Of a stretch of DNA of 64,000 nt, positions 1,697 through 34,712 are shown in pieces. Each line of letters begins with the position of its first letter. Position 1 is the first letter of the stretch. The stretch comes from Negaprion brevirostris (Eukaryota). The DNA is taken from NCBI GenBank assembly GCA_030324005.1, contig JARDVH010000110.1, positions 46,592,949 to 46,656,948 of the forward strand, read 5' to 3'. The translations under genes were made by a program, and so were the position numbers. A model generated the notes under the pieces. That model searched no databases. It saw nothing but the letters and a program-made list of their open reading frames with translations, and was not told the origin of the DNA.

Positions 1697-2604
1697 AAAA
1701 GGTGCAAAATGCCACACAAATGTCATATTCAATAATTACCATCAGTAATTTCTATCCTGAGTGGTGTTATCAAAGGACACTTTTAGCCCTCAATTTTCTT
1801 ACTTTTATCTGTAGTTATGTTAATATTATGTAAAATGATTGAGGAAATTTGCATTTCTAAGCATGACATGCCATCCTTCATTGCCCTCTCAGGACAGAGG
1901 GTGCTTGTATATCGTTCTTCAGCCATTACCTCCTTCAGTGCTGGTCTCCTGCACCCAACAGTCCCATCAATGCCAGCTTGCTAGATTTTTTTAAATCTGG
2001 TAGGAGAATAAAGATGGTGGAAAACATACATTAATCACCTCAGTTGGTTGTCAAAAGGTTTTGGAATGATGAAAGGTGAATAAAATACTGTCACTCCAAA
2101 GTAGAATGAAACCAAGTGGAATATAAATTACAAGATTGATGTTAAAATTGGGAAGATAAGTAAGCTCGAAATCATTAATGTACAGCTGCAGAGCTGTGAA
2201 ACAATAGAAAGAGCTCCTTTGCAATATGCTCACAGTCAAATTGAGGGGAGATTACCAATTTTTCAAGAACAAAACTATTTGTTGCAAATAATATTGGATT
2301 AAAGTCAAGAATTAATGTCAGTGAAATACAGCAGGCAAGTCTTTAATTTTTGAAAAAAAACTTTGTGGACTTGACTATCCCTGGTGTGAGGAGCCAAGTT
2401 CATTTCACTGCGTTACAAGGTGTTGTACCACATTTTCTAATAAATGCAGCATACACTTACCATTTGGTCAGAAGCCAATAACCTATTTTTCAGCTGTTTT
2501 GATTCAATCAGGGCCACCAAAGGTATGGGAAATGTTTGCATCTCATTCAGATATAAAAATTAAATTGGAATTGAGAAACTTCAAAATAAGTTCCTGCCCC
2601 ATAA

Positions 2605-3300
2605 TGTGAATGTGAAATTATATGTTAACGTTTTTGTTTTTGTCTTTTTATTCCGCAGGTATCGGTCCACCTTGTTGTCAAACAAGGGGCATGCACATGA
2701 TGGGTTGTGCGTGGGCTGCTCTTGGAGGTTCCGGGAGTGGCCTAGTAACGTCGTGTCGGTGTGTGTGTGCTTAATCCTGCACCAGTAGACAGGCGCCGCA
2801 ACAGCTCAGTGACTATCACTGCTAGCTGTGCAGATACATGGATTTGGGCCAGTGTCTGTGGGAGTTTGCGCANNNNNNNNNNNNNNNNNNNNNNNNNNNN
2901 NNNNNNNNNNNNNNNNNNNNNNNNNNNNNNNNNNNNNNNNNNNNNNNNNNNNNNNNNNNNNNNNNNNNNNNNGTAGGAGGATGCGGCGGCGCGGGCTCGT
3001 TGGGCCGAAGGGCCTGTTTCCCGTGCTGGGCTGTTCTTTGTTCTTTGTATGTGAAGGAGGCAATTTTCAGAAGCAAATTCATACACTAAATCTTACAGAA
3101 CGAATCTAACAAGAATCGGGATACACACTCCAGTGACCATAGCACAGCTCCTCCAGAAGGGTCCAGGCTGCAAAACCATTGCAAAACTAATGACCTGCTC
3201 TGTGATGGTTCACATGGCAGCATAGCTCTCATTGTATTCATGCTGGCCATGTGAAGTTGGGTTGAAAAGTAGGGTTACAAACCAAGCCTATGTTGCAACA
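2605..3300. mobile_element. Unclassified TG...CA element, copy 1 (possible solo LTR), interrupted by a gap and a CR1 tail
   Basis: Colinear homology with the reverse complement of 30748-32403; starts TGTGAATG; hairpins at 2670-2687 and 3209-3255. Confidence 0.6.
2973..3048 (+). mobile_element. Young CR1 3' tail
   Basis: GGGCCGAAGGGCCTGTTTCCCGTGCTG followed by (TTCTTTG)n terminal repeat; CpGs retained. Confidence 0.8.
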
Positions 3301-3960
3301 TAATGATTCTTAGGTTCAATGTGGTGATTGAAAGACTGAAGGACTAGTGGATTACTTCAGAATGAAAACTCACCAATTGCACAGTCAACAAGTGGTAATC
3401 TTTGAAGCTGCAGTACATTCAAGTATTGAGATGTTATGTCTGGAAAGCTACATGTGCGCAGTCAATGATATCATACATCAGGGAAGCCAAATGCATGCCC
3501 CACCTGTCTTCCATGGTGAAAACAATGAACTTCCCATGTCTGGGCTTAAAAATTGTCTCTCAAATAGGACATTCAGTGAAATTTGTCCATGCCAGTGCTT
3601 ATGTTCTACTCAAGTTTGAATAGGATGCAGCAATTTAGACCATGTATTTATGTGGGTGTCATTATCATTTAGGACAATGACCAGAATGGTCAACACTTGC
3701 TTTTCTCACTATAAGTCGCAACAATCCAATGTCAGCCAAACCTCAGGAAAGAGAATATGGCCTTGGAAATAACGCAGCACAAATTGACCAAAGTGACAGC
3801 AGGATAAATTTTGAGCAGAGCTTTGCATGAATTTGACTCGTAGTCTTTTGACTTTGTATGGTGGAGAGCAACCTAATAAAGGTGTTTAAATGATAAAGGG
3901 ATTGGATTGGATGAATACAGAGAAACCGATGGGGAATCTAGAACAGGAAGGATAATCAGT

Positions 3961-5887: not shown

Positions 5888-6153
5888 TGGCTTACATCAA
5901 AATTGCAATGATGTTACTGTGGAAATCCTTAGTCACCACACACCAATACCTGTTTAGGTACACTGAGGGAGAATTTAGCACGACCAATGCACCTAATCAG
6001 CACATCTTTGGACTATGCGAGGAGACCAGAGCATCCAGAAGAAACCCACAGAGAGAACATGCAAACTCCACAGGGACAGTGACCCAAGGAGGGAATCAAA
6101 CCCAGGGCCCTGACATGTAAGGTAGCAATGCTAACCACTGTGCCACCATGCCA
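5888..6153 (-). mobile_element. V-SINE, tail type B
   Basis: Same head, core and tail as 1391-1696. Confidence 0.85.
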
Positions 6154-8142
6154 CACTAGCTTCAATACACAATGAGAAAATATTTATCATTCGATGCAAA
6201 GCATAATTTTTCTCTGAACTAAGCTCAGTGTGGATAGAAATAGCACATTATTGAAGGTGAATTGGTTGGTGCTAATTTACAGGAAGATTTTGTCATTTTT
6301 AAAGTTGGAAATGAAAGCACCATTCGAGTATGTCACTGCTAGTGTAAGGTATTCTCATTTGTACAGGGGGATTGTTGTTTGCGGTGCTTGACATTCAAGT
6401 TTTTTGAATGATGCTCTGCAGACACTTCAGAGGGCACCCAATATTATTCAATTATACTGGTCCCTCTCAGCTACATTCATGTTGAGATGCCCTCTCAATC
6501 CTTGGGCTGCCTCAATAGTGCCCACCTCCCAATGGAGCTGCCAAGGCTCAAAAGCAGGCAACCTTCTAACTGAACCAACGGCATCTCCATCCCACCTAAC
6601 TTCCTTAATAGAATGATCAGTTTTGGTGTGCCAGTTAAGAAGCCATCTCAGGACACATTGCTGTGCCAGTCTTGCTCCTGCCATGTGTGCACGGGAGGTT
6701 CCCCACTTGGTCTGACGTCGGGGTCCAGTAGGCTGCATTAAAATCCTGCTCAGCATCTCTGAGCTGAAAGATTGGAATAGAAAGCTCTGCCTTCACGATT
6801 ATGAAGTTCGGTGAAATGTTGTTTACTATAATAGAAGCATGCTAAAGCAACCAATACACAATCACTCCCATGTGGCAATTAAATGCCCCAGCTTTTGGCC
6901 TCAGTGGGCAGTTAAGCAAAGTCAGATGTTCACATTAGCCTGGCATAAACAACTTTATTTGAATCCCTAACCAGATCTAGCCTAGAAAAACTGCCAGCAC
7001 ATGTGTCAGGTTAGTATTTCATTACTTTCTTGTGCTTGAGCCGAGTTGGGAGCAATGTTCAGTATAGATGTCAAGGAATCCCAACCCAAACTGGAGGCTG
7101 ACAAGTATAAGCGGAGGGGGAGAAGTAATGGATGCCAATTTAAGCAGTAGATAAATCACATTCCTTAAACCATCAGGCTGGCTAATCTTGTAGGCTCATC
7201 CTAACATTTGCTTTTCTTTATATAACTTACTGAGTGCCCTAATTAATTCTGAGTTATGGAACATATTAATTAAGGGCAAAAGAAAAGTTACAACATTTCT
7301 GTGCTGGCTGTTTACTAGAACAGTTCACAGCTAATTCCACTGCCCCACTTTCGCCTCAAAGCCTTGTAACTTCCTCAGTTTCAAACTTTGCTTCGAAGAC
7401 GCAACGGTGCTGACTTTAACTAAAGAGAAAATAGCTGAAGCTGCAATATCCGACTGTTGTGAATGCAAAAACAGCCTGTACCGTTTATTTCTTTTCTCAG
7501 TCCCAAGTTCAGCTGGGAGTCTAACTGTGATGTGCAGTGGCTCCAGAGAATATCAGAGTAGCACATTCGCACCGTTGTAAAGTTTGAGGCATTTTATCCC
7601 ATGGTCTCAGTTTAAGTTTTGAAATGCTGATTCTCAGCTGATGCTGGCAGCACTGAGTGATTAACACTAGGACATGGAGCAGCTGGAAGCCACGTCCAGG
7701 GACTGGAGCTGGGGAGGGAGAAAGGGGACAGACAGGTAGATGGATGGGAATCGGAGGGGAGAGCTTCAGGCCCAGGAGGCTCGATGAGCGGTTGAAGGAG
7801 CACCTCTGCACCTGAGCCTGCTCCAGTGTTTCATCTCTCAAAGCGAATTCCTCTCAATTTTCTCCACGAATTCTGATATGTGGTGCTGCAGGAGGGCATG
7901 GAGTAGCTCTACGAAGGCCTGGCATCTCCCCTTCGATCCTCTTCTGCTTCCAAATCTAACAGCATTGAGCAGTCCAAGTGACAAATCTATCAGTATCAGA
8001 AAAGGGAACTGAGGGAAAAATTTTTAAAAAGTAACAATCAAAACAGTAAGTGGCTCTTTCATGTTTAATTGTAATAATTGAATTGGTTGCCCCTCCATCT
8101 TGCCAATTAACTGGAAGGTAGCAAAAAATGAATAGAGCCAAC

Positions 8143-12175: not shown

Positions 12176-12430
12176 AAAAGTAAAATACTGCGGATGCTGG
12201 AATCGGAAACAAAACCAGGAAATGCTGGAAAATCTCAGCAGGTCTGACACCATCTGTGGAGAGAAAACAGGGCCAATGTTTTGAGTTGAAATGACCCTTC
12301 GTTAGAAACATAGACAGGCCTGATAGCGACTTTTGATGGGCTCTGACAAAGAGTCATTCAGACTTGAAACGTTGGCTCTGTTCTCTCCCCACAGGTGCTG
12401 TGATACCTGTGGAGATTTTCCAGCAATTTC
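12176..12430. mobile_element. Inverted dimer of Penelope-type hammerhead repeats with a 15-bp TSD
   Basis: Minus copy at about 12176-12308 and plus copy at about 12338-12430; AGGTTCAGTTAAGTT at 12161-12175 and 12431-12445. Confidence 0.8.
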
Positions 12431-12689
12431 AGGTTCAGTTAAGTTTTTAGCCAGCTGTGTCCTTGTTGATCTGTACCAGATTCTTTGAAAGTTTGATGGT
12501 GAATTCTCATTTGATTTGTTGGTAATCTTAATTGTTAAAATATTACTGGTGCTCATGTGAGAGTCTGAACCTTTATATATTTTTGTTGCCACTTGCCAGT
12601 ATTGTGTATTTTCTGATGTGCTACTGAATGTAGCTCCGTCAGTGTGACCCAACAATATGGTGCAGCCGCAATCTGCTGAATGCCAAATG

Positions 12690-12972: not shown

Positions 12973-13240
12973 GGGGCGGCACAGTGGTTAGCACTGCTGC
13001 CTCACAGCACCGGAGATCTGGGTTCAATTCCAGCCTCAGGTCACTGTCTGTGTGGAGTTTGCACATTCTCGCCGTGTCTGAATGGATTTCCTCCAGGTGC
13101 TCTGGTTTCCTCCCACAGTCCAAAGATGTGCAGTTTAGGTGGATTGGCCATGATAAATTGTCCTAGGACTAGGGGGCACAGCCTCAAGATAAAGGGGGGG
13201 CGGTTTAGAACGGAGTTGAGGAGGGACTTCTTCACTCAAA
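12973..13240 (+). mobile_element. V-SINE (to about 13165) joined to a young CR1 fragment
   Basis: SINE head and core, then RTRGHSLKIKGGRFRTELRRDFFTQ. Confidence 0.85.
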
Positions 13241-13563
13241 NNNNNNNNNNNNNNNNNNNNNNNNNNNNNNNNNNNNNNNNNNNNNNNNNNNNNNNNNNNN
13301 NNNNNNNNNNNNNNNNNNNNNNNNNNNNNNNNNNNNNNNNNNNNNNNNNNNNNNNNNNNNNNNNNNNNNNNNNNNNNNNNNNNNNNNNNNNNNNNNNNNN
13401 NNNNNNNNNNNNNNNNNNNNNNNNNNNNNNNNNNNNNNNNNNNNNNNNNNNNNNNNNNNNNNNNNNNNNNNNNNNNNNNNATTTTTCTTTGTACGTTTAT
13501 AACTTAGCTTTGGAAGTCCTGGAATCATCTTTGTTGCTCTTCTCTAAATATCTTTAATCATTT

Positions 13564-13912
13564 GGGGTGGCACGGTGGCACAGTGGTTAGCATTGCTGCC
13601 TCACAGCACCAGGGACCTGGGTTTGATTGCAGCTTGGATAACTGTCTGTGTGGAGTCCCTGTGTCTGCGTGGATGTCCTTCAGGTGCTCCGGTTTCCTTC
13701 CCACAGTCCAAAAATATGCAGGTTAGGTGGATTGGCCATGCTAAATTGACCCTTAGTGTCTGGGGTGTTGGGGGGGGGGGGGGGGGGGGGGGTGGAGTGC
13801 TAGCTAGGGTAAACGTATGGGATTATGGGGATAAGGCCTGGGTGGGATTGTGGTCAGTGCAGACTTGATGGGCCGATTGGCATCCTTCTGCACTGTATGA
13901 CTCTATGACTAT
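13564..13912 (+). mobile_element. Full-length HE1-type V-SINE, tail type A (CR1-like)
   Basis: Head and core, then GATGGGCCGATTGGCATCCTTCTGCACTGTATGACTCTATGA. Confidence 0.9.
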
Positions 13913-14611
13913 CTAAAAGGAAATAATGTTCTTTGAAGATATAAAGTTGCTTGAATTATTCTAATTGTTATTATCAGAGTTACAACAGGTTACAATAACT
14001 TGTTTTGATTTAATTAGCTCAAGATATATCTTTGTACTTGATTAGCTTTGTTGTGAGTTGCTTCATTAAGCAGTTGATTATCACATTCAAGTTCATGTTG
14101 AATTTTCATCTTTCCGAATGGATACCTGGGCCTAGCTTTTCATCTTGCCAGAGAACCTCTCCATCATGGTGAAAATGGTGGAAGAGGCCTGAATCCAGAA
14201 GTCCCCATCCCCACAACACAACATATATCTGTGTTGTGAAGTAGGTCATAATTTGTGTACGCACATTTCGAGGAGGTAGCCACCCATGGAAATCAGAAGC
14301 CACCATCACTCACGGGATCAGAGAATCACAGAATCATTGCAGAAGTAGGTCATTTTTCCCATCAAGNNNNNNNNNNNNNNNNNNNNNNNNNNNNNNNNNN
14401 NNNNNNNNNNNNNNNNNNNNNNNNNNNNNNNNNNNNNNNNNNNNNNNNNNNNNNNNNNNNNNNNNNAATCATTGCAGAAGTAGGTCTTTTTTCCCATCAA
14501 GACTTCACTGCTCCCTGAAAAGCATTCCTACCTAACCCACTCCTCTCTCTTATCTGCGTAACACTGAACATTCTTCCTTCCCAGATATCAATCTTTTAAA
14601 TGCCTCAATCT

Positions 14612-14859
14612 CGGTGGCACAGTGGTTAGCACTGCTGCCCTGCAGTGCCAGGGACCTGGGTTCAATTCCTGGCTTGGGCGACTGTGTGTAGTTTGCACGT
14701 TCTCCCGTCTCTGCATGGGTTTCCTCCATGTGCTCCAGTTTCCTCCCACAGTCCAAAAACATGCTGGTTCAGTGCATTTGCCATGCTAAAAAAATTTCTC
14801 CCTCAGTGTATCCAAACAGGTGCTGGAATGAGGTGACTAGGGGATTTTCACAGTAACTT
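14612..14859 (+). mobile_element. V-SINE, tail type B, 3' truncated
   Basis: Head and core, then TCTCCCTCAGTGTA..GGGGATTTTCACAGTAACTT. Confidence 0.85.
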
Positions 14860-24862: not shown

Positions 24863-25713
24863 GCCTTTTACAATAATTGCTCAGTTTGCTAATTATCGCC
24901 AAAACATCAAGACACATCTCATCTCTTGTACATGCTGTGCCACTGTGTGGGAAGCATTTACCTTTGCTGGCAAGAAAGCAAAGGAAAGTAAAGGCACGAT
25001 GACGTAATTGAGGTGTCTCAACATGATTATATCGGTTTCCATTCATGGGCAGGTCACCACAATTCACAAAAAAGCAGACAACTCTCGGGATTCTCAAAGG
25101 GAAGCTTCATATAGACGTTCTTCCATCAATAAAGTTAAAGACATTTACTGGGCAATTTAGAGGTAGGGTTGATCATGTGTGCAATCCTTTTAGATCTGAC
25201 CTTGTGTCTTTGATTCTGAGGGGAAGTACTAAATTTGCAAAATGGGTTAACCTTTATCAAGTACTTTGCAAGCGAGTACACATAACACTGATTGGATTGC
25301 TCCTGTATATTGGCTATATGAGATCCTCATATAAATCCAGTAACTTGGCAAGGTGTAATCTCCTGCTTGTAAATCCACATGACCTTTCATTAACCACATT
25401 TATCTTTGATCGTATCTGCATTATGATTCAAAATAATAATCTTTAGTATTTTATTGATACCAATGTTTGACGAAGCAAACCATAATACCAAACCTTAGAA
25501 TTAATCCTTTATTTAAATTAAAGTACAATTTTTTTTTAATAAGCTACAATAGCCTCATATCGCGTTATAAAGCTTGGCTTCTGACTAGCTGAAGTAATAA
25601 CTTTGTCATTTTGAGTATGGAATAAAAACAAATTTAATATTTTAAATACAACATCATTTTATTCTAGCCTGATTAGCAATACCCCACTTTTATTTTGGGA
25701 GCACCCAGTCAAT

Positions 25714-26012
25714 GGATGGCACAGTGGCACATTGGTTAGCATTGCTGCCTCACAGTGCCAGGGACCCAGGGATTTCTGGCTTGGCTATGTGGAGTCTGCA
25801 CATTCTCCATGTGTCCATGTGGGTTTCCTCTGGATGCTCTGGTTTCCTCCCACAATTCAAAAGACATGCTGGTTAGGTGCATTGGCCATGCTAAATTCTC
25901 CCTCAGTGTACCTGAACAGGTGCCAGGGTGTGGCAACAAGGGGATTTTCACAGTAACTTCATTGCAGTGTTAATGCAGCCTACTTGTGACACTAATAAAT
26001 GAACTTTAAACT
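25714..26012 (+). mobile_element. Full-length V-SINE, tail type B
   Basis: Ends CAGTAACTTCATTGCAGTGTTAATGCAGCCTACTTGTGACACTAATAAATGAACTTT. Confidence 0.9.
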
Positions 26013-26346
26013 TAATTAAGTTTAAATTGTGAGTTAGTAGTGATAAATTAGATCAGTTCAAACCAAATCCTCCTTCACTTCATCCCATGTATGTAAGCTA
26101 AATGTAGGAACAAACTCCAGCACATTTTCAAATCACTAAGGGCTTCGGAAAATAATAAAATGATTTATGCGTGCATTTTGCTATTTCCCAAAAGGAAAGC
26201 TTTTGGTCATATGGACTCAAAACGGCAACTCAGTTTCTCTCTCCAAAGATACTGCTGAGTATTTCCAGCATTTTCTGTTTATATTTTTGCAATTTCCTTT
26301 TCCTTTCAGGGTTCCCAGAAGTCTGTTTAATGTCAGCCAATAAACT

Positions 26347-27370: not shown

Positions 27371-30300
27371 GGAGTTGAACCATTAGTATCCCTTTTAAAA
27401 AAATACAATGGTTACAAAGAACTATGATTCATTTTAACATCCTTTAGTTTATTTCTGTCCATTTCTGTTTATTTCTAGAACTTTTCTGTTTAAATAGTGA
27501 GTTCTGATAAGATTGTCGAGGGAACTAACTAGGGGCAATTACTCAGCCCAACAGTGTAAGGAAACTGGATTAACACACAGTTTAAATGGTATGCTCAGCA
27601 AAGGATCCAGGGTTAATGATTGTATCCCTGCTGATGTTAATTCTACTCCCTAAATACTGGTAACTCCTCCAAACCAGGTCTATGAGTGAAATCTTCAGTG
27701 TTGTGTGCATTAGCAGAAATATTTAAAACGTTAACAGAAGCAGGTACAAAGAAACAAAAAGGACATAAAATTAATTAGAATTCTTTGTAAATATTGCTTT
27801 TTAAAAGAGTGCTGAGGGTGAGTGTACCTTTTAAAGGGGTGTTAACTTCATAGAAGACTGTCTGGCAAGCCTTCATTTGTTTACAAACATACAATGCACC
27901 AGTGTAAATCTTTTGAAAATGTGTCACTATGTAACCTATATCTAATGTTACAGTTATAGAAATGGCACACAATATTTGTGACTTACTTCCCTCCTAAGCA
28001 AAGGATTAGCCAAATCAACCAATCACCAGCACAATATTTCTTTGTTTAAATACCCATAATTACTTTAAGATTAAAAAAAAAGGTTTTATTAGAAAACAAA
28101 TTATTGTAGAAATGAAGACATTTGAGGTATATTTTCCACCATAAAAAAATGTTAGTAACCCTACCTCCAGCAGATTTTAACACCCCTCAATTAAATTGAA
28201 GGCCCCTTTATGAATTTTCCTGCAGTTGATGTAGTGAAACTTTAGTTCTCAGGGAAGAATTGTTATTTGTTTAATATTGCCATTTAACTGCCAAAAAATT
28301 CAATAATCCAACCTTGGATTGCACCTGAGAAAATTAGTCCACAGAAATGGAGAATTCCAATTTATCCATAATGTTCAATCTTTGCAAATAGACAATCTCA
28401 ATCATGGAAGGTTGCTGCCTCTACTGGAAATTAAACATTCCACAGCTAACTTTAAAACAGATTTATATCATTTTCTGCATTGAATTGTATGATTGCCATA
28501 CCTGGAAATTACAGTTGTGTCATATGAATATGTCCAGAAATATAAAAGTGTAAGGGTTACTATGTGAACAATTTCAGTAATTTAGTTTTCATACAAGGAT
28601 TAATGTTCAATGCATAAATCATATTTAAATATCTAAACTCAGATAATTATGGGTCCTGTATTCTCTCCTGTATTCCAGAGTTGATTTAACTCTGGAATCA
28701 TGTAATAATGCGGCATTATTATGGTTATTGACAGTCGTACAACAGCCAACACAAATTCATAACTCAGACTTGCTGTGTTTATTTATATCAATTTATTCAG
28801 AATTTGGGTATTAAATTAATTATTACTAATGTTTTCAACTGCAGGTTTTATTGCATCCATGGCATCACCACAGCAATTGCCTCACTATAGTTGGAGTTTG
28901 TGTTGGTACCATCAGGCTCATATAGTCACCTCTTTTGCTGTACCTCCTATATCAAAGTGAGCAATATTATTCATGCTTACTTCTCTGGCATCACCTGAAT
29001 TTCCCCTCTAATATAAACTGCTGCCTTTGGAGTATTGTTCTCTCAATGGATTGGAGAATCCACGTGCTAGTATCCTGCTCTAATTTGGAGGAACCGCTCC
29101 CGTCACAAAGTGTAGTGTAGTTTCCCCCATGAGCTGTCATTGCAGATGAATCTACACTATAGGCCATAATTACAAGATCAAGGCTAATTAAGCACCAACT
29201 GTGGTAACAATGCTAAACTTGCTTTTATTGGAAAGAAGCAGACTGTTGTGTGTTTGTGAATGTTTTATTGATTGATGCTGTTTAGTGAATGTGAAATTTG
29301 AGCCTGCCAACGTTGCATGGCATACGAATCTCAGATACCTTATCACACACTATGATTATATTGGACATGTGCCAGGGACAAAACTTTTAATTATATAGAT
29401 AGGGTAGAGAATGTAATCTTATTTTATACAATATAAAGTGTTACATAATTTGTTTTAAAGATACTGAATGTTAATTTATCATTAGTCATATTGTTACATT
29501 AATTTCATACTTTGTCAAGAAAATGCTATGGGTATCATTTTGATGACATTATTTTGATTTGATAATAAATAGATTCATAATTCTGATCAGTTTTATTCTA
29601 TTCTTATTTTGTTTTAAAAGATATATTTTACATGTTTGATAATGTTACCGAAATAATAGTGTAAAATTTGAATGTATCTAACATGTTTTTTTTTAAATTG
29701 CATTCAGCGCTATAAGGAAGTCAATTCTGTAAAATGTAAATTGTGTTCACCTTTTGGCTAACGACAATAACAAGTTCTCCCAGGTCAGGTATAGCAATGG
29801 TTAGATTCAAACCAGGCACATGACAACTTTGATGTAAACTTCACCTATAACATTATTTTAAAGATACCTTGCCAAAGCATAATATGGATTAAATATGCAA
29901 GCTTTCTCCAACTATCCTATTATTTTACTTACAGAGTATATGTTCAATGCAAGGTAAAGTTCTTGCTGTTCCGTGCCAACTTTCGAAAAGCATCTTCTAC
30001 TGCACCACTGCCAACTTCCAACTTTCTACACCAATCATACTGTAGTGTCTCTGTATGGAATTATTGTTAATGAGAACTCATGCTGAAAATGAACAAGTTT
30101 ATGCTGTGAACCCATTGGGCAGAATTTCCCCAGGCTGTTGGAGATGGATTCAGGTGTGGGCCAAGTGGGAAAGTCCTGCAGCAGGTTGTTGAGTCAGAAT
30201 CCTGCTTTCTTGTGGCTTTCCCCAGGGTGCCTTGTGAGTCCAGCAAGGAACCCACATGGGCTTCTTTGAGCATTGGGATTCCTCTTTGCCAACAGTGCAT

Positions 30301-30784
30301 CGGTTACATATTGTATCAAATGTACAGCTGGAACTAAGTGTGGGGTGAAAAAGACAATGATGTGAGTAGTATAAACAGTGAAGCCAACAAACCTGTGGCC
30401 AGCCACAGGGAAAGCCTTGCATTGACAAAAGCATTTCCTTCAGTCTAAACCCATTAGGAGCAGCGGTTTTGTGCAGCTTATGCAAGTGCCTTTGACCCCT
30501 GAAAGAATTGATTTCACCTTATTGCCCATGATGTTCCCAGTGACATTGGGTCCACAAGTTCTGAAATTGGTTGCACCTCTGAGGAGAGGTATATTGTCCT
30601 CCAGCTAAGCAGCCACAGCAACAGAGGCAGCAACACCAATAAAAGCAGTAGCTGCTGCCTTCCCCATAGCGACATGCAGCTAAACAGAACAAAAGGGATG
30701 GACACAGGGGCAGCATTCATTGGTGGCTTGTCGTGTCTGATTCTTCATGTGGTTTACCATTTGTTCAATGGAGGTGTCCATCAG

Positions 30785-30880
30785 AAGAAATGGAGGAGCC
30801 CAGCTCTCACATAAGCAGCATGATGTGGAGTGTGTGAGACATTGTGCTGTTTATGTGAGAGCCGGGCTCCTCCATTTCTT
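30785..30880. repeat. Inverted repeat with 42-bp arms and a 12-nt loop
   Basis: AAGAAATGGAGGAGCCCAGCTCTCACATAAGCAGCATGATGT versus the reverse complement of 30839-30880: 4 differences. Confidence 0.95.
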
Positions 30881-31280
30881 GTGCAAGGCTCCACACTGCT
30901 TCTCGAATTTCTGACAGATGCGCACTCATTTTCATTACCATTGCACAATTACTCATTTAATGGATGAGAGTCAGATCTGTGTCCACCTGAGCAGAGCCTT
31001 GAGTGTCCTGCACCCTCTGAGAGGGAGTCTCCACCTCTCTCCCTGTCTCCAGAAACTGCTCTTCCTCACACGGGATGTGGGCCTCACTATTTACTACCCA
31101 GCCTAACTGAGAGGCCGGACTCACAAAGGTGTACCGCTGTATAGCACCTATAAGAATTATGTAATAGCGCGCCCTCCGAGTGCTCTGGGGAATCCGTGAA
31201 CTTCTCCTTCATCTCCTGCCCCAAGTCCTGCAAAGCACCAGTAGTTGATGAAAGATATGAGTTACGCTGAGTGCAGATTA

Positions 31281-31360
31281 TACAAGGTGAGGGGGGAGAG
31301 GTACAACACAGATATTAGAGGGAGGTTTTTCACACAGAGGGTAGTGGGGGTATGGAATGC
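31281..31360 (+). mobile_element. CR1 fragment running into a gap
   Basis: YKVRGERYNTDIRGRFFTQRVVGVWN. Confidence 0.85.
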
Positions 31361-33756
31361 NNNNNNNNNNNNNNNNNNNNNNNNNNNNNNNNNNNNNNNN
31401 NNNNNNNNNNNNNNNNNNNNNNNNNNNNNNNNNNNNNNNNNNNNNNNNNNNNNNNNNNNNNNNNNNNNNNNNNNNNNNNNNNNNNNNNNNNNNNNNNNNN
31501 NNNNNNNNNNNNNNNNNNNNNNNNNNNNNNNNNNNNNNNNNNNNNNNNNNNNNNNNNNNNNNNNNNNNNNNNNNNNNNNNNNNNNNNNNNNNNNNNNNNN
31601 NNNNNNNNNNNNNNNNNNNNNNNNNNNNNNNNNNNNNNNNNNNNNNNNNNNNNNNNNNNNNNNNNNNNNNNNNNNNNNNNNNNNNNNNNNNNNNNNNNNN
31701 NNNNNNNNNNNNNNNNNNNNNNNNNNNNNNNNNNNNNNNNNNNNNNNNNNNNNNNNNNNNNNNNNNNNNNNNNNNNNNNNNNNNNNNNNNNNNNNNNNNN
31801 NNNNNNNNNNNNNNNNNNNNNNNNNNNNNNNNNNNNNNNNNNNNNNNNNNNNNNNNNNNNNNNNNNNNNNNNNNNNNNNNNNNNNNNNNNNNNNNNNNNN
31901 NNNNNNNNNNNNNNNNNNNNNNNNNNNNNNNNNNNNNNNNNNNNNNNNNNNNNNNNNNNNNNNNNNNNNNNNNNNNNNNNNNNNNNNNNNNNNNNNNNNN
32001 NNNNNNNNNNNNNNNNNNNNNNNNNNNNNNNNNNNNNNNNNNNNNNNNNNNNNNNNNNNNNNNNNNNNNNNNNNNNNNNNNNNNNNNNNNNNNNNNNNNN
32101 NNNNNNNNNNNNNNNNNNNNNNNNNNNNNNNNNNNNNNNNNNNNNNNNNNNNNNNNNNNNNNNNNNNNNNNNNNNNNNNNNNNNNNNNNNNNNNNNNNNN
32201 NNNNNNNNNNNNNNNNNNNNNNNNTCGAACCAACATCCAAGAGCAACCCTCACACGACACATCACGTCTATGCCCCTTGTTAGTCAACAAGGCGAACCAA
32301 ATCGCCTGTGGATGGAAAAAGGAGACATCAAGAGACAAGTCTCCACAACAGGATGAGCCTTTCCATATCTAGCATTGATTCTACAATTCTTTCTTCATTC
32401 ACATTGACTTTATCCCTCCAAACACTGCTGTCATTGTAAATCCTCTAAGAATGTCTGTAAGTAGAGATCCTTCATTGCTGATCTGTACCTCATTCCAGCC
32501 GTCCTTCCTGTTTCATCGAGAAACCAAGAGGTAAGCCAATAATTAGCTTGCTCCTGGAAAGGTCAATTACAAGACACAAAAAGTGGATATCCAACTTCCT
32601 GACCTGAAGATGGTCCCACACTTCCAGCAGAACTCATGCACTGAAATTTCAACCATTTTGCACAATCAACATGGAAAGAACATTTCTTCCCATTAACTTT
32701 GATTTACACCCAAGTCCTAGAGGTGAATGAACAATATGCTAACATCAGATCCCTCTCCATGTTACATTTATAATGATACTCGCCTAATTGGTGAACAATT
32801 GCATGTGCATGTCATAATTCCAATTGTGCAATCAGTTGAAATATTGTGGAATGTATCAATTATGTCCCCTACTGTTTTAATTCAGTTCTTTACAAGTTAA
32901 TGCGAATAAGTCATGGTCACGCTGACACTGAACCTGTTGTACAGGATATTTATGTGACTATATCCATGGTGCACAGTTCTTTCTCAACCATTCTGTATGA
33001 CCATGCCATCCTCCTCCAACACCATTCCTCATTAACCTTCTGGGTGTGACCTCCCTCACCTGGATCCATTCTTACCTATCTAGTTTTAACTGCAATGGTT
33101 TCTCTTCTCACTCCTGCATCAAAGATCTATCCTTGGCCCATTCATCTACATGCTGCCCCTCAGCAACATTATCAGGAAACATGTCAAAATTCATGTGTAC
33201 TCTGACAACATCTGGCTCCACCTCTTCACCACTTCTGCTTTGTCACACTGCTTGTGTGGCAACCAATTTTGGATTAACGTAAGTTTCCTCCACTTAATAT
33301 TAAGAAGATCAAAGTCATTGCCTTGGGTTCCAACAACAAGCTTTACTCCATAGACTGAATCCATCCCTCAATCTGACAAATGTCTGAGGTTAAACCAGAT
33401 CATTCACAACATTTGTATAATTTTTGGTCTGAAGTGAGCTTCCAGCCACATATTTGTGGCTCCATCACCAAGATGCCTACTGTCACCTCCATAACATCGC
33501 TTACCTCCTTCCTGTGTAAGCTACAGAAATGCTCAACCATGCCTTTATTACTCTAGTCTTGATTAATTCAAAGCTCTCTAGCTGGCCATGCAAGTTCCAT
33601 CTTCTATCAACAAACTCGTCTAAAACTCTCCGGCTAATATTCTTACATGCATCAAGCCCTGTACAACCATCATCCCTTGCTCACTGACCTTCATTGGCTT
33701 CTGGTCTAAGAAGGCCTTGATTTTAAGATTTTCATCTTTGTTTTCAAATCTTTACA

Positions 33757-34591
33757 GTGCACAAGGAGGCCATTTGGCTCATTAAATCTGCACCAACTCT
33801 CTGATAAAACTTCATGCCCAGGCGCACTCCACTGTTCTATCCCCACAATCCCATACATTTACCATAGCTAATCCCCTAATAAACAAATCTTGGGACACTA
33901 AGAGGCAATTTAGTATGGCCAATCCACCTAACCTGCTCATCTTTGGACTGTAAAGTGGATTTATTAGTCACAAGTAGGCTTACGTGAACACTATGATGGA
34001 GCAATTAAAATCAGGGATGAAGACGAGGCCAGAATTGGAGGAGTACAGCAATCTCAGAGGGTTGTATGGTTGGAGGGAGGTTATACAAGCAGGGAGAAGC
34101 ATTGCACTAGATAGGTGGCACAGTGGCACAGTAGTTAATACTGCTGCCTCACAATGCCTGGGACCTGGGTTCGATTCTGGCCTTGGATGAAATTACTGTG
34201 AAAATCCTCTAGTCGCCACACTCTGTGCCTCTTTGGGTGTACTGAGGGTGAATTTAGCATTGCTAATTCACCGAACCTGCACATCTTTGGACTGTGGAAG
34301 GAAACTGGAGCACCTGAAGGAAACCTACACAGACATAGGGAGAACATGCAAACGCCATACAAACAGTGACCCAAACTGGGAATTGAACCTAAGTCCCTGG
34401 CCCTGTGAGGCACCAGTGCTAACCACTGTGGCACCATGGTGATAAGTGGGAAGAAAACATAACACCCAGAAAAAACTGATGCAGACATCGGGAAAATATG
34501 CAAACTCCATACAGTCATCCAAGGCCAGAATCAAACCCAGGTCCCTGGCATTGTGAGGCAGCAGTATTAACTACTATGCCACTGTGCCACC
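33757..34591 (-). mobile_element. Stack of three V-SINE pieces (tail A 33757-33950; tail B 33951-34437; head 34445-34591)
   Basis: Matches the other SINE copies in the window. Confidence 0.8.
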
Positions 34592-34712
34592 TATCTAGTG
34601 CAATGCTTCTGCCTATTTGTATAACCTCCCTCCAACCATACAACCCTCTGAGATCGCTGTACTCCTCCAATTCTGGCCTCTTGTTCATCCCTGATTTTAA
34701 TTGCTCCATCAT
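33993..34712. repeat. 198-bp inverted duplication (33993-34190 versus 34515-34712)
   Basis: Arms are near-identical reverse complements spanning an L2/SINE junction. Confidence 0.95.

What the first reader, a model, noticed from the sequence alone, without database searches (positions are those of the whole stretch)
2605..3300. Unrecognised ~0.7-kb TG...CA element present twice, with hairpins conserved across diverged copies
Seen: 2605-3300 is colinear with the reverse complement of 30748-32403, about 29 kb away. Matching blocks include the start TGTGAATG, AACAAGGGGCAT..GCTCTTGGA, TAATC(C)TGCAC..GAYTTGGG, TGTGA.G.AG..CA.TTT and CTCC..CAGA.GGGT.CAGG. The stem CCTTGTT/AACAAGG is kept while its loop changes (GTCA at 2670-2687; GACT on the minus strand at 32275-32292). 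The terminal hairpin TTCACATGGCAGCAT..ATGCTGGCCATGTGAA (3209-3255) matches TCACATAA.CAGCA..ATGCTGCTTATGTGA, with a compensatory GG:CC to AA:TT swap. Both copies keep a polypyrimidine-CAG acceptor-like site, and each carries a CR1 inserted at a different site. Copy 2 has near-TSD flanks TTCA/TTGA. Inference: a solo LTR or a structured-RNA mobile element whose hairpins were functional. I cannot assign it to a family.
Basis: partly seen in the sequence, partly recalled or inferred. Interest (0 to 1): 0.7.

Follow-up and report, generated by a model that had tools for sequence, protein, structure and literature searches.

The report
CR1 LINE tails with folded cassette
Both 'copies' are clipped tail ends of a common jumping gene (a CR1 LINE, in what is likely a shark genome), not a new LTR element; this LINE's unusually long tail carries a captured SINE piece, a splice-site-like motif and a stretch predicted to fold alike in three subfamilies, which likely helps process the element's own RNA.

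Summary
The shared 5' block is real (80.6% over 67 bp; 0 of 500 shuffles as high), but there is no 0.7-kb TG...CA element. Copy 1 (about 2609-3048) is a 5'-truncated CR1 LINE 3' UTR ending in a CR1 stem-loop and (TTGTTCT)n, between 7-bp ATGTGAA repeats. Copy 2 (32337-32225, minus strand) is the UTR of a sister subfamily. The CR1 'inserted' in copy 2 is a third subfamily of the same lineage. Longer genomic copies run into ORF2 (Pfam RVT_1). The 3' halves and the two 'terminal hairpins' are unrelated flanks (144 of 500 shuffles as high).

One feature is unusual. The fold is sense-strand specific and is kept mainly through wobble changes; two-sided covariation is not significant. No spliced retrocopy was found, and splicing is untested on RNA. 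Verdict: a new variant of a known kind, of modest interest.

The parts
2604..2610 (+). Left target-site duplication ATGTGAA (overlaps the element's first bases; a second ATGTGAA at 2610-2616 makes the exact start uncertain)
   Evidence: sequence
2609..3048 (+). Copy 1: 5'-truncated 3' UTR of CR1 subfamily A (closest to A1, 136/142 in the block)
2625..2659 (+). Branch-point-like TTAAC, pyrimidine tract and CAG|G acceptor-like site (CAG 2656-2658); use in splicing untested
2659..2790 (+). Structured block, predicted three-way junction: P1 (2664-2669 with 2778-2783, one mismatch in this copy), H1 (2670-2687), long rod (about 2688-2772)
2793..2872 (+). Decayed SINE-derived part (tRNA-like head with the B-box region deleted in A, then the start of the conserved body); continues into the N gap
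   Evidence: the V-SINE/HE1 name is recalled
2873..2972 (.). Assembly gap (100 N); relatives hold the rest of the SINE body and a spacer here
2985..3048 (+). Native CR1 3' terminal stem-loop region and (TTGTTCT)n tail, shared with short-UTR sister CR1s
3049..3055 (+). Right target-site duplication ATGTGAA
3056..3300 (.). Flank, not part of the element: an old low-copy repeat (67-70% to 3 loci) holding the 3209-3255 hairpin
32225..32337 (-). Copy 2: 5'-truncated 3' UTR of CR1 subfamily B (73/84 to the B majority); acceptor-like CAG at 32308-32306, H1 at 32292-32275; 3' end lost in the gap
31361..32224 (.). Assembly gap (864 N) between two CR1 pieces that face tail to tail
31283..31360 (+). ORF2 3' piece of CR1 subfamily C, the same long-UTR lineage, on the opposite strand
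30700..31282 (-). Flank, not part of the element: an older repeat (60-64% to several loci) that likely continues on the far side of the CR1 pieces (L058 matches both flanks in order)
30782..30883 (.).

Best explanation
The two matching stretches are 5'-truncated 3' UTRs of sister subfamilies of one CR1 LINE lineage, whose long UTR carries a splice-acceptor-like motif, a predicted three-way RNA fold and a decayed SINE piece that were likely gained once and likely kept because they act in cis on the LINE's RNA. Shown: the link to ORF2, the ragged 5' ends, the tail, the TSD at copy 1, and one clade of long-UTR elements with short-UTR sisters. Inferred from established LINE biology: copies arise by target-primed reverse transcription from the tail and usually stop early, so only the UTR is seen here. 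Inferred: the cassette entered one master element between stop codon and native tail, most likely by template switching onto an intron-end/exon RNA that already held a SINE. Inferred and untested: the fold and the 3'-splice-site signal help process, stabilise or export the unspliced LINE RNA; any spliced product is not copied back at a detectable rate. I put the CR1 identity at about 0.95, selection on the fold at about 0.55, and real use of the acceptor at about 0.35.
For: Long copies of A (L008, L023, L026, L027), B (L035, L036, L076) and C (L223) run into an ORF2 C-terminus. L076/L099 holds about 2 kb of ORF2, with RVT_1 at E 5.6e-24. An ORF2-end tree of 21 rows puts all 12 long-UTR rows in one clade (97/95), sister to a short-UTR CR1; 5 automatic labels were corrected by eye from the printed downstream sequence. 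Other CR1s in the loci reach their tail within about 90 nt of ORF2. Fold of the four subfamily majority sequences: sense z -3.2, -4.7, -1.7, -5.5; antisense 0.4, 0.6, 0.2, -1.4. 12 of 46 pairs vary between subfamilies and 10 stay paired in all four; 13 of 92 paired against 18 of 32 unpaired columns vary (Fisher p 7.5e-6). A YTRAY at -23 to -25, a 74-80% pyrimidine tract, no intervening AG, and CAG|G are present in all 5 variant groups.
Against: No two-sided covariation above shuffles: 311 of 500 (A+B) and 143 of 500 (A+B+C). The structure was derived from the same sequences, so the paired/unpaired contrast leans in its favour. In B the fold is weak: mean z -1.1 over 30 copies, the MFE differs, and P1 probability is 0.56. 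RNAalifold on 51 copies gave a different overall fold. No spliced retrocopy: 1 of 46 B and 13 of 213 A exact exon-start matches lack the intron-like flank, and none joins sense CR1 sequence at the AG; that filter passes only about 9 in 16 random junctions. No donor was found, since no full-length copy was recovered.
Confidence: 0.8

Rival explanations
1. Same CR1 identity, but the cassette is a neutral passenger. The rod arose from an old fold-back duplication, its G-U richness came from A-to-I editing or G/T-rich composition, and the acceptor is a leftover from the captured host sequence.
For: No significant two-sided covariation. Most differences at paired sites are A-U/G-U exchanges, which editing would also give. 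B folds weakly. No spliced copies. Short-UTR sisters lack the cassette.
Against: The block is better conserved between A and B (80-84%) than the spacer after the SINE part (62-71%). Unpaired columns change more than paired ones. The acceptor motif survives in 5 variants although the spacer before it differs in length and sequence.
Confidence: 0.4
2. The T-rich motif is an antisense polyadenylation signal rather than a splice acceptor; it would end transcripts that read through the element backwards.
For: AATAAA or ATTAAA on the antisense strand in 4 of 5 variant groups.
Against: Absent in A3 (4 copies) and at a different position in B, whereas YTRAY and CAG|G are in all 5 groups.
Confidence: 0.1
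3. A solo LTR, or an independent structured-RNA element of 0.7 kb with TG...CA ends.
For: The 5' block and one stem are shared between the two places.
Against: Ragged 5' ends, a tandem-repeat tail, continuity with ORF2, nothing shared beyond 3053, and non-homologous terminal hairpins.
Confidence: 0.02

Closest known systems
CR1-clade LINEs of sharks and rays (HER1 is listed as partner of the HE1 V-SINE in a table of PMC3747384; CR1-group elements cover 22-34% of elasmobranch genomes in PMC13343379; passages seen)
   Same: RT-bearing ORF2, 5' truncation, terminal stem-loop region plus tandem-repeat tail, short TSD.
   Different: The 3' UTR is about 550-700 nt instead of about 40-120 nt, with an inserted acceptor motif, folded block and SINE piece. 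Identity with HER1 or any Repbase/Dfam entry was not tested.
V-SINEs (HE1) and MER6, a DNA transposon that captured a V-SINE (PMC6887750, passages seen)
   Same: A SINE head and conserved body carried inside another mobile element.
   Different: Here the carrier is an autonomous LINE's 3' UTR, the SINE lacks its own tail, and the head is decayed. The V-SINE label for this genome's SINE is recalled, not checked against a library.
SINE-LINE module exchange and bipartite LINEs (PMC5786205, PMC5499810; passages seen)
   Same: Retroposon modules recombine, likely by template switching.
   Different: The passages seen describe LINE parts entering SINEs (and one possible SINE-to-LINE case in a 5' UTR); here a SINE plus extra sequence entered a LINE 3' UTR.
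Spliced L1 transcripts and retroviral RNA-export hairpins such as the CTE (recalled, no call)
   Same: A splice signal or long hairpin in a retroelement RNA that could govern processing or export.
   Different: No spliced copies found; no sequence match; Rfam gave 0 hits at gathering in the window and none on the block in 5 loci at E up to 5.

Membership tests
CR1 LINE | ORF2 with a reverse transcriptase contiguous with the 3' UTR | tested here: met
   RVT_1 E 5.6e-24 in L076, contiguous with the B UTR; ORF2 C-termini in A and C copies
CR1 LINE | Variable 5' truncation with a fixed 3' end | tested here: met
CR1 LINE | 3' stem-loop region plus short tandem-repeat tail, no poly(A) | tested here: met
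   (TTGTTCT)n tail, shared with short-UTR CR1s; the motif's CR1 label is recalled
CR1 LINE | Short target-site duplication | tested here: inconclusive
   7 bp at copy 1, 9 bp at L139, 6 bp at L104; of 28 A loci examined only 7 had a readable tail and most gave no clear TSD
CR1 LINE | APE endonuclease, ORF1 (esterase) and placement in the CR1 clade by RT phylogeny | not tested
   No full-length copy recovered; the tree used only ORF2 ends from this genome; the clade label rests on recalled C-terminal and tail motifs
Solo LTR | Fixed TG...CA termini shared by copies | tested here: not met
Solo LTR | Fixed-length 4-6 bp TSD directly outside the termini | tested here: not met
   TTCA/TTGA lie in unrelated flank; the real TSD at copy 1 is 7 bp around 2609-3048
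Solo LTR | Paired copies flanking gag-pol with PBS/PPT | tested here: not met
   Upstream of long copies is CR1 ORF2, not an LTR internal region; no genome-wide pair search was run
V-SINE (embedded part) | tRNA-like head followed by the V domain | tested here: inconclusive
   The B UTR aligns with the free window SINE 25705-26020 from its head onward; no V-domain reference was available
Known structured RNA (Rfam) | Match to a covariance model | tested here: not met
Functional conserved RNA structure | Two-sided covariation above background | tested here: not met
   311/500 and 143/500 shuffles as high; only about four lineages, so power is low
Functional 3' splice site | Branch motif, pyrimidine tract, first AG | tested here: met
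   5 of 5 variant groups
Functional 3' splice site | Junction reads or spliced retrocopies | tested here: inconclusive
   No spliced retrocopy among 46 B and 213 A exon-start matches, with a filter of partial sensitivity; reads not examined

The most novel reading that the evidence does not exclude
A vertebrate CR1 lineage captured, and has since kept under selection, a cis-acting RNA module in its 3' UTR: a working 3' splice site followed by a three-way-junction RNA and a disarmed SINE. The module controls the fate of the LINE RNA (spliced and not copied, or unspliced, exported and copied) and, in subfamily A, sets a preferred stopping point for reverse transcription, so that most longer insertions deliver a ready-made splice acceptor and exon into the host genome.
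Probability: 0.3. Interest if true: 0.65.

Novelty: new variant of a known kind. Interest (0 to 1): 0.33.

Why it matters
As a family it is ordinary: CR1 is the dominant repeat class of sharks. The twist is the UTR. CR1 UTRs in this genome are otherwise about 40-120 nt, and this lineage carried a 450-600-nt cassette through at least three waves of expansion. If the fold and acceptor work, they would be a testable cis-control of LINE RNA fate, and hundreds to thousands of insertions would seed splice acceptors across the genome. I found no description in 7 literature searches. Repbase, Dfam, subscription papers and supplements were not seen, so the consensus may already be deposited there without comment.

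Tried and rejected
Solo-LTR ends and 4-bp TSDs: rejected. Homology of the 3' halves: none by nucleotide alignment or tblastx (best E 0.19). Conservation of the terminal hairpins: homologs of the copy-2 flank lack the inverted arm (10 loci), and homologs of the copy-1 flank keep at most the inner stem (3 loci). Coding potential of the block: substitutions between A and B are not concentrated at third positions in the most open frame (read by eye; no formal test). Rfam: nothing. Ribozyme, SECIS and tRNA-like readings: no recalled core motifs seen, and 5' ends are spread rather than at one base. A lariat branch-point stop as the cause of the 5'-end pile-up: no single sharp peak. Naming the flanking old repeats: Pfam on 78 of 124 open stretches gave only sub-threshold hits, including DDE_Tnp_4 at E 0.013 in L065, so a Harbinger-like origin remains a guess. 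Tail-anchored truncation sample: uninformative, 18 of 30 loci end in N and 3 failed to align. Search for a splice donor: no full-length copy in 6 extended loci. Covariance model R1 found only copy 1 and the H1 stem of copy 2 in the window; no genome-wide model search was possible. Sequencing runs: no RNA holder listed, which is no evidence on expression; no reads were examined. Earlier scan notes: nothing. The original V-SINE paper was not held.

Full report
Observation. Window self-comparison finds one significant match between the two places: 2664-2730 against 32298-32232, 80.6% over 67 bp. The 5' parts align far above dinucleotide shuffles (113 against 45.7; 0 of 500). The middle part (36 of 500) and the 3' halves (144 of 500) do not. 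Both places contain assembly gaps: 100 N at 2873-2972 and 864 N at 31361-32224. Only the first 110-230 bp of the claimed element is therefore shared.

What copy 1 is. A genome search with 2640-2872 gave 2025 first-look candidates, of which 40 were scored at 87-94% identity apart from the window itself. In the 29 other fetched loci, homology to the window ends at 3053 or earlier and never includes 3054-3300. The copies have ragged 5' ends and a fixed 3' end of GGGCCGAAGGGCCTGTTTCC followed by (TTGTTCT)n. The longest continue upstream into an ORF2 C-terminus. Copy 1 spans about 2609-3048 between two ATGTGAA repeats (2604-2610 and 3049-3055).

What copy 2 is. Its family starts at about 32337 (356 candidates) and has the same UTR plan with a longer upstream spacer. 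One locus carries about 2 kb of ORF2 contiguous with it, with Pfam RVT_1 at E 5.6e-24. Copy 2 is closest to this subfamily B (73/84) and copy 1 to subfamily A1 (136/142). The plus-strand CR1 piece at 31283-31360 belongs to a third subfamily, C (1576 candidates), whose UTR again has the acceptor motif, block, SINE piece and tail. The flanks on both sides of copy 2 match one locus (L058) in order, so the CR1 pieces likely interrupt an older repeat. The genome is likely a shark or ray; this is inferred from recalled SINE and CR1 motifs, not from a label.

The terminal hairpins. The one at 30782-30883 is a 102-bp near-perfect inverted repeat (z -14.3); homologous loci have at most the left arm (10 loci), so it is likely a local fold-back. 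The one at 3209-3255 (z -3.3) lies in a different old repeat, whose 3 homologs keep at most the inner stem. The two flanks do not align by blastn or tblastx, so the proposed compensatory swap is a chance resemblance.

The unusual part. Other CR1s in the fetched loci reach their tail within about 90 nt of ORF2, and the closest short-UTR relatives share the same (TTGTTCT)n tail. In a tree of 21 ORF2 ends, the 12 long-UTR rows form one clade (97/95), sister to a short-UTR element (five automatic labels were corrected by eye; midpoint root). A cassette was therefore likely gained once between stop codon and native tail. It holds, in order: a spacer; a YTRAY at -23 to -25, a pyrimidine tract without AG, and CAG|G in all 5 variant groups; a block of about 140 nt; a decayed SINE head and body that align with a free SINE of the window; and a second spacer. 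Between A and B the block is 80-84% identical, the SINE part 89-91%, the tail 89-96%, the second spacer 62-71% and the acceptor region 61-72%.

The fold. Individual A copies fold well on the sense strand only (mean z -3.1 against +0.1; 26 copies); B copies fold weakly (-1.1 against -0.4; 30 copies). 19 loci were skipped, mostly for gaps or truncation. B can adopt it at 1.4 kcal/mol above its minimum. Of 46 pairs, 12 differ between subfamilies and 10 remain paired in all four, nearly all through A-U, G-U and G-C exchanges; 13 of 92 paired and 18 of 32 unpaired columns vary. Against this, two-sided covariation is at background (311 of 500; 143 of 500 on 35 chosen copies), the structure was derived from these same sequences, RNAalifold on 51 copies kept only the two hairpins, and A-to-I editing could give the same G-U bias (inference). 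Rfam has no match.

The acceptor. If LINE RNA were spliced here and then copied, retrocopies would join upstream sequence at the AG. Of 46 exact B exon-start matches, 1 lacked the intron-like flank (an insertion into an unrelated repeat), and all 30 fetched kept the acceptor region. Of 213 A matches, 13 lacked it; their upstream sequences are unrelated flanks ending in G or AG, consistent with truncation at microhomology, and none is sense CR1 sequence. The filter passes about 9 in 16 random junctions. No donor was found and no reads were examined, so use of the site is open.

A truncation hot spot. In A, 5' ends pile up just upstream of the fold: 13 ends in 417 nt of exposure at -45..+5 against 14 in 2305 nt inside the block (p 6e-5, window chosen after looking), and 23 in 674 nt in a second, partly overlapping sample. 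B shows none (5 in 1269). The reverse transcriptase may fall off at the U-rich tract after crossing a strong fold, or the tract may offer microhomology to tail-like target sites; short-read assembly bias may add to the effect. This is unresolved.

Mechanism and verdict. Shown: CR1 3' UTR identity, three subfamilies, one clade, conserved motif order. Inferred: insertion by target-primed reverse transcription with early stop; one-time capture of the cassette, likely by template switching; retention because the fold and 3'-splice-site signal likely aid processing or export of the LINE RNA (about 0.55 for the fold, 0.35 for real splicing). The main rival is a neutral passenger. Papers were seen only as search listings and keyword passages (PMC13343379; PMC3747384; PMC11481361; PMC6887750; PMC5786205; PMC5499810); none of those passages describes this UTR. 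Supplements, Repbase and Dfam were not seen and may hold the consensus. It is a new variant of a known kind; interest 0.33.

Noticed in passing
L104 (G000:C97:82399312-82402343) and L112 (G000:C193:72216431-72219462): Two truncated A copies share 99 bp of upstream flank at 99% but differ downstream; L104 has a 6-bp TSD and a SINE just upstream. L112 is likely a retrocopy of a read-through RNA from L104 (5' transduction).
   Followed up: partly
Subfamily A, -45..+5 around the acceptor (window about 2614-2663): About five-fold excess of 5' ends just upstream of the fold; absent in subfamily B.
   Followed up: partly
window 30782-30883: Locus-specific 102-bp near-perfect inverted repeat inside an old repeat.
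   Followed up: yes
window 30200-31282, 32338-33000 and 3056-3500: Two different old low-copy repeats (60-70% identity to a few loci); one weak DDE_Tnp_4 hit in L065 (E 0.013, below cutoff). A Harbinger-like origin is a guess.
   Followed up: partly
window 33993-34190 and 34515-34712; 12208-12435: A 198-bp inverted duplication at 95% identity, and an older inverted repeat at about 72%.
   Followed up: no
window, e.g. 1386-1696, 5890-6154, 12975-13163, 13560-13909, 14604-14859, 25717-26014, 34187-34591: More than a dozen copies of the abundant tRNA-type SINE, 70-85% alike.
   Followed up: no
L081 (G000:C106:2276994-2280015): A B-type ORF2 end and spacer joined to a C-type tail, next to a second B copy; a possible recombinant or assembly artefact.
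   Followed up: no
L075, L080, L088, L092: The UTR start appears twice across N gaps; likely assembly artefacts.
   Followed up: no
one search run list: 11 of 23 rows are marked as holding the A stretch, in 5 studies and 5 coded organisms, one possibly the source.
   Followed up: no
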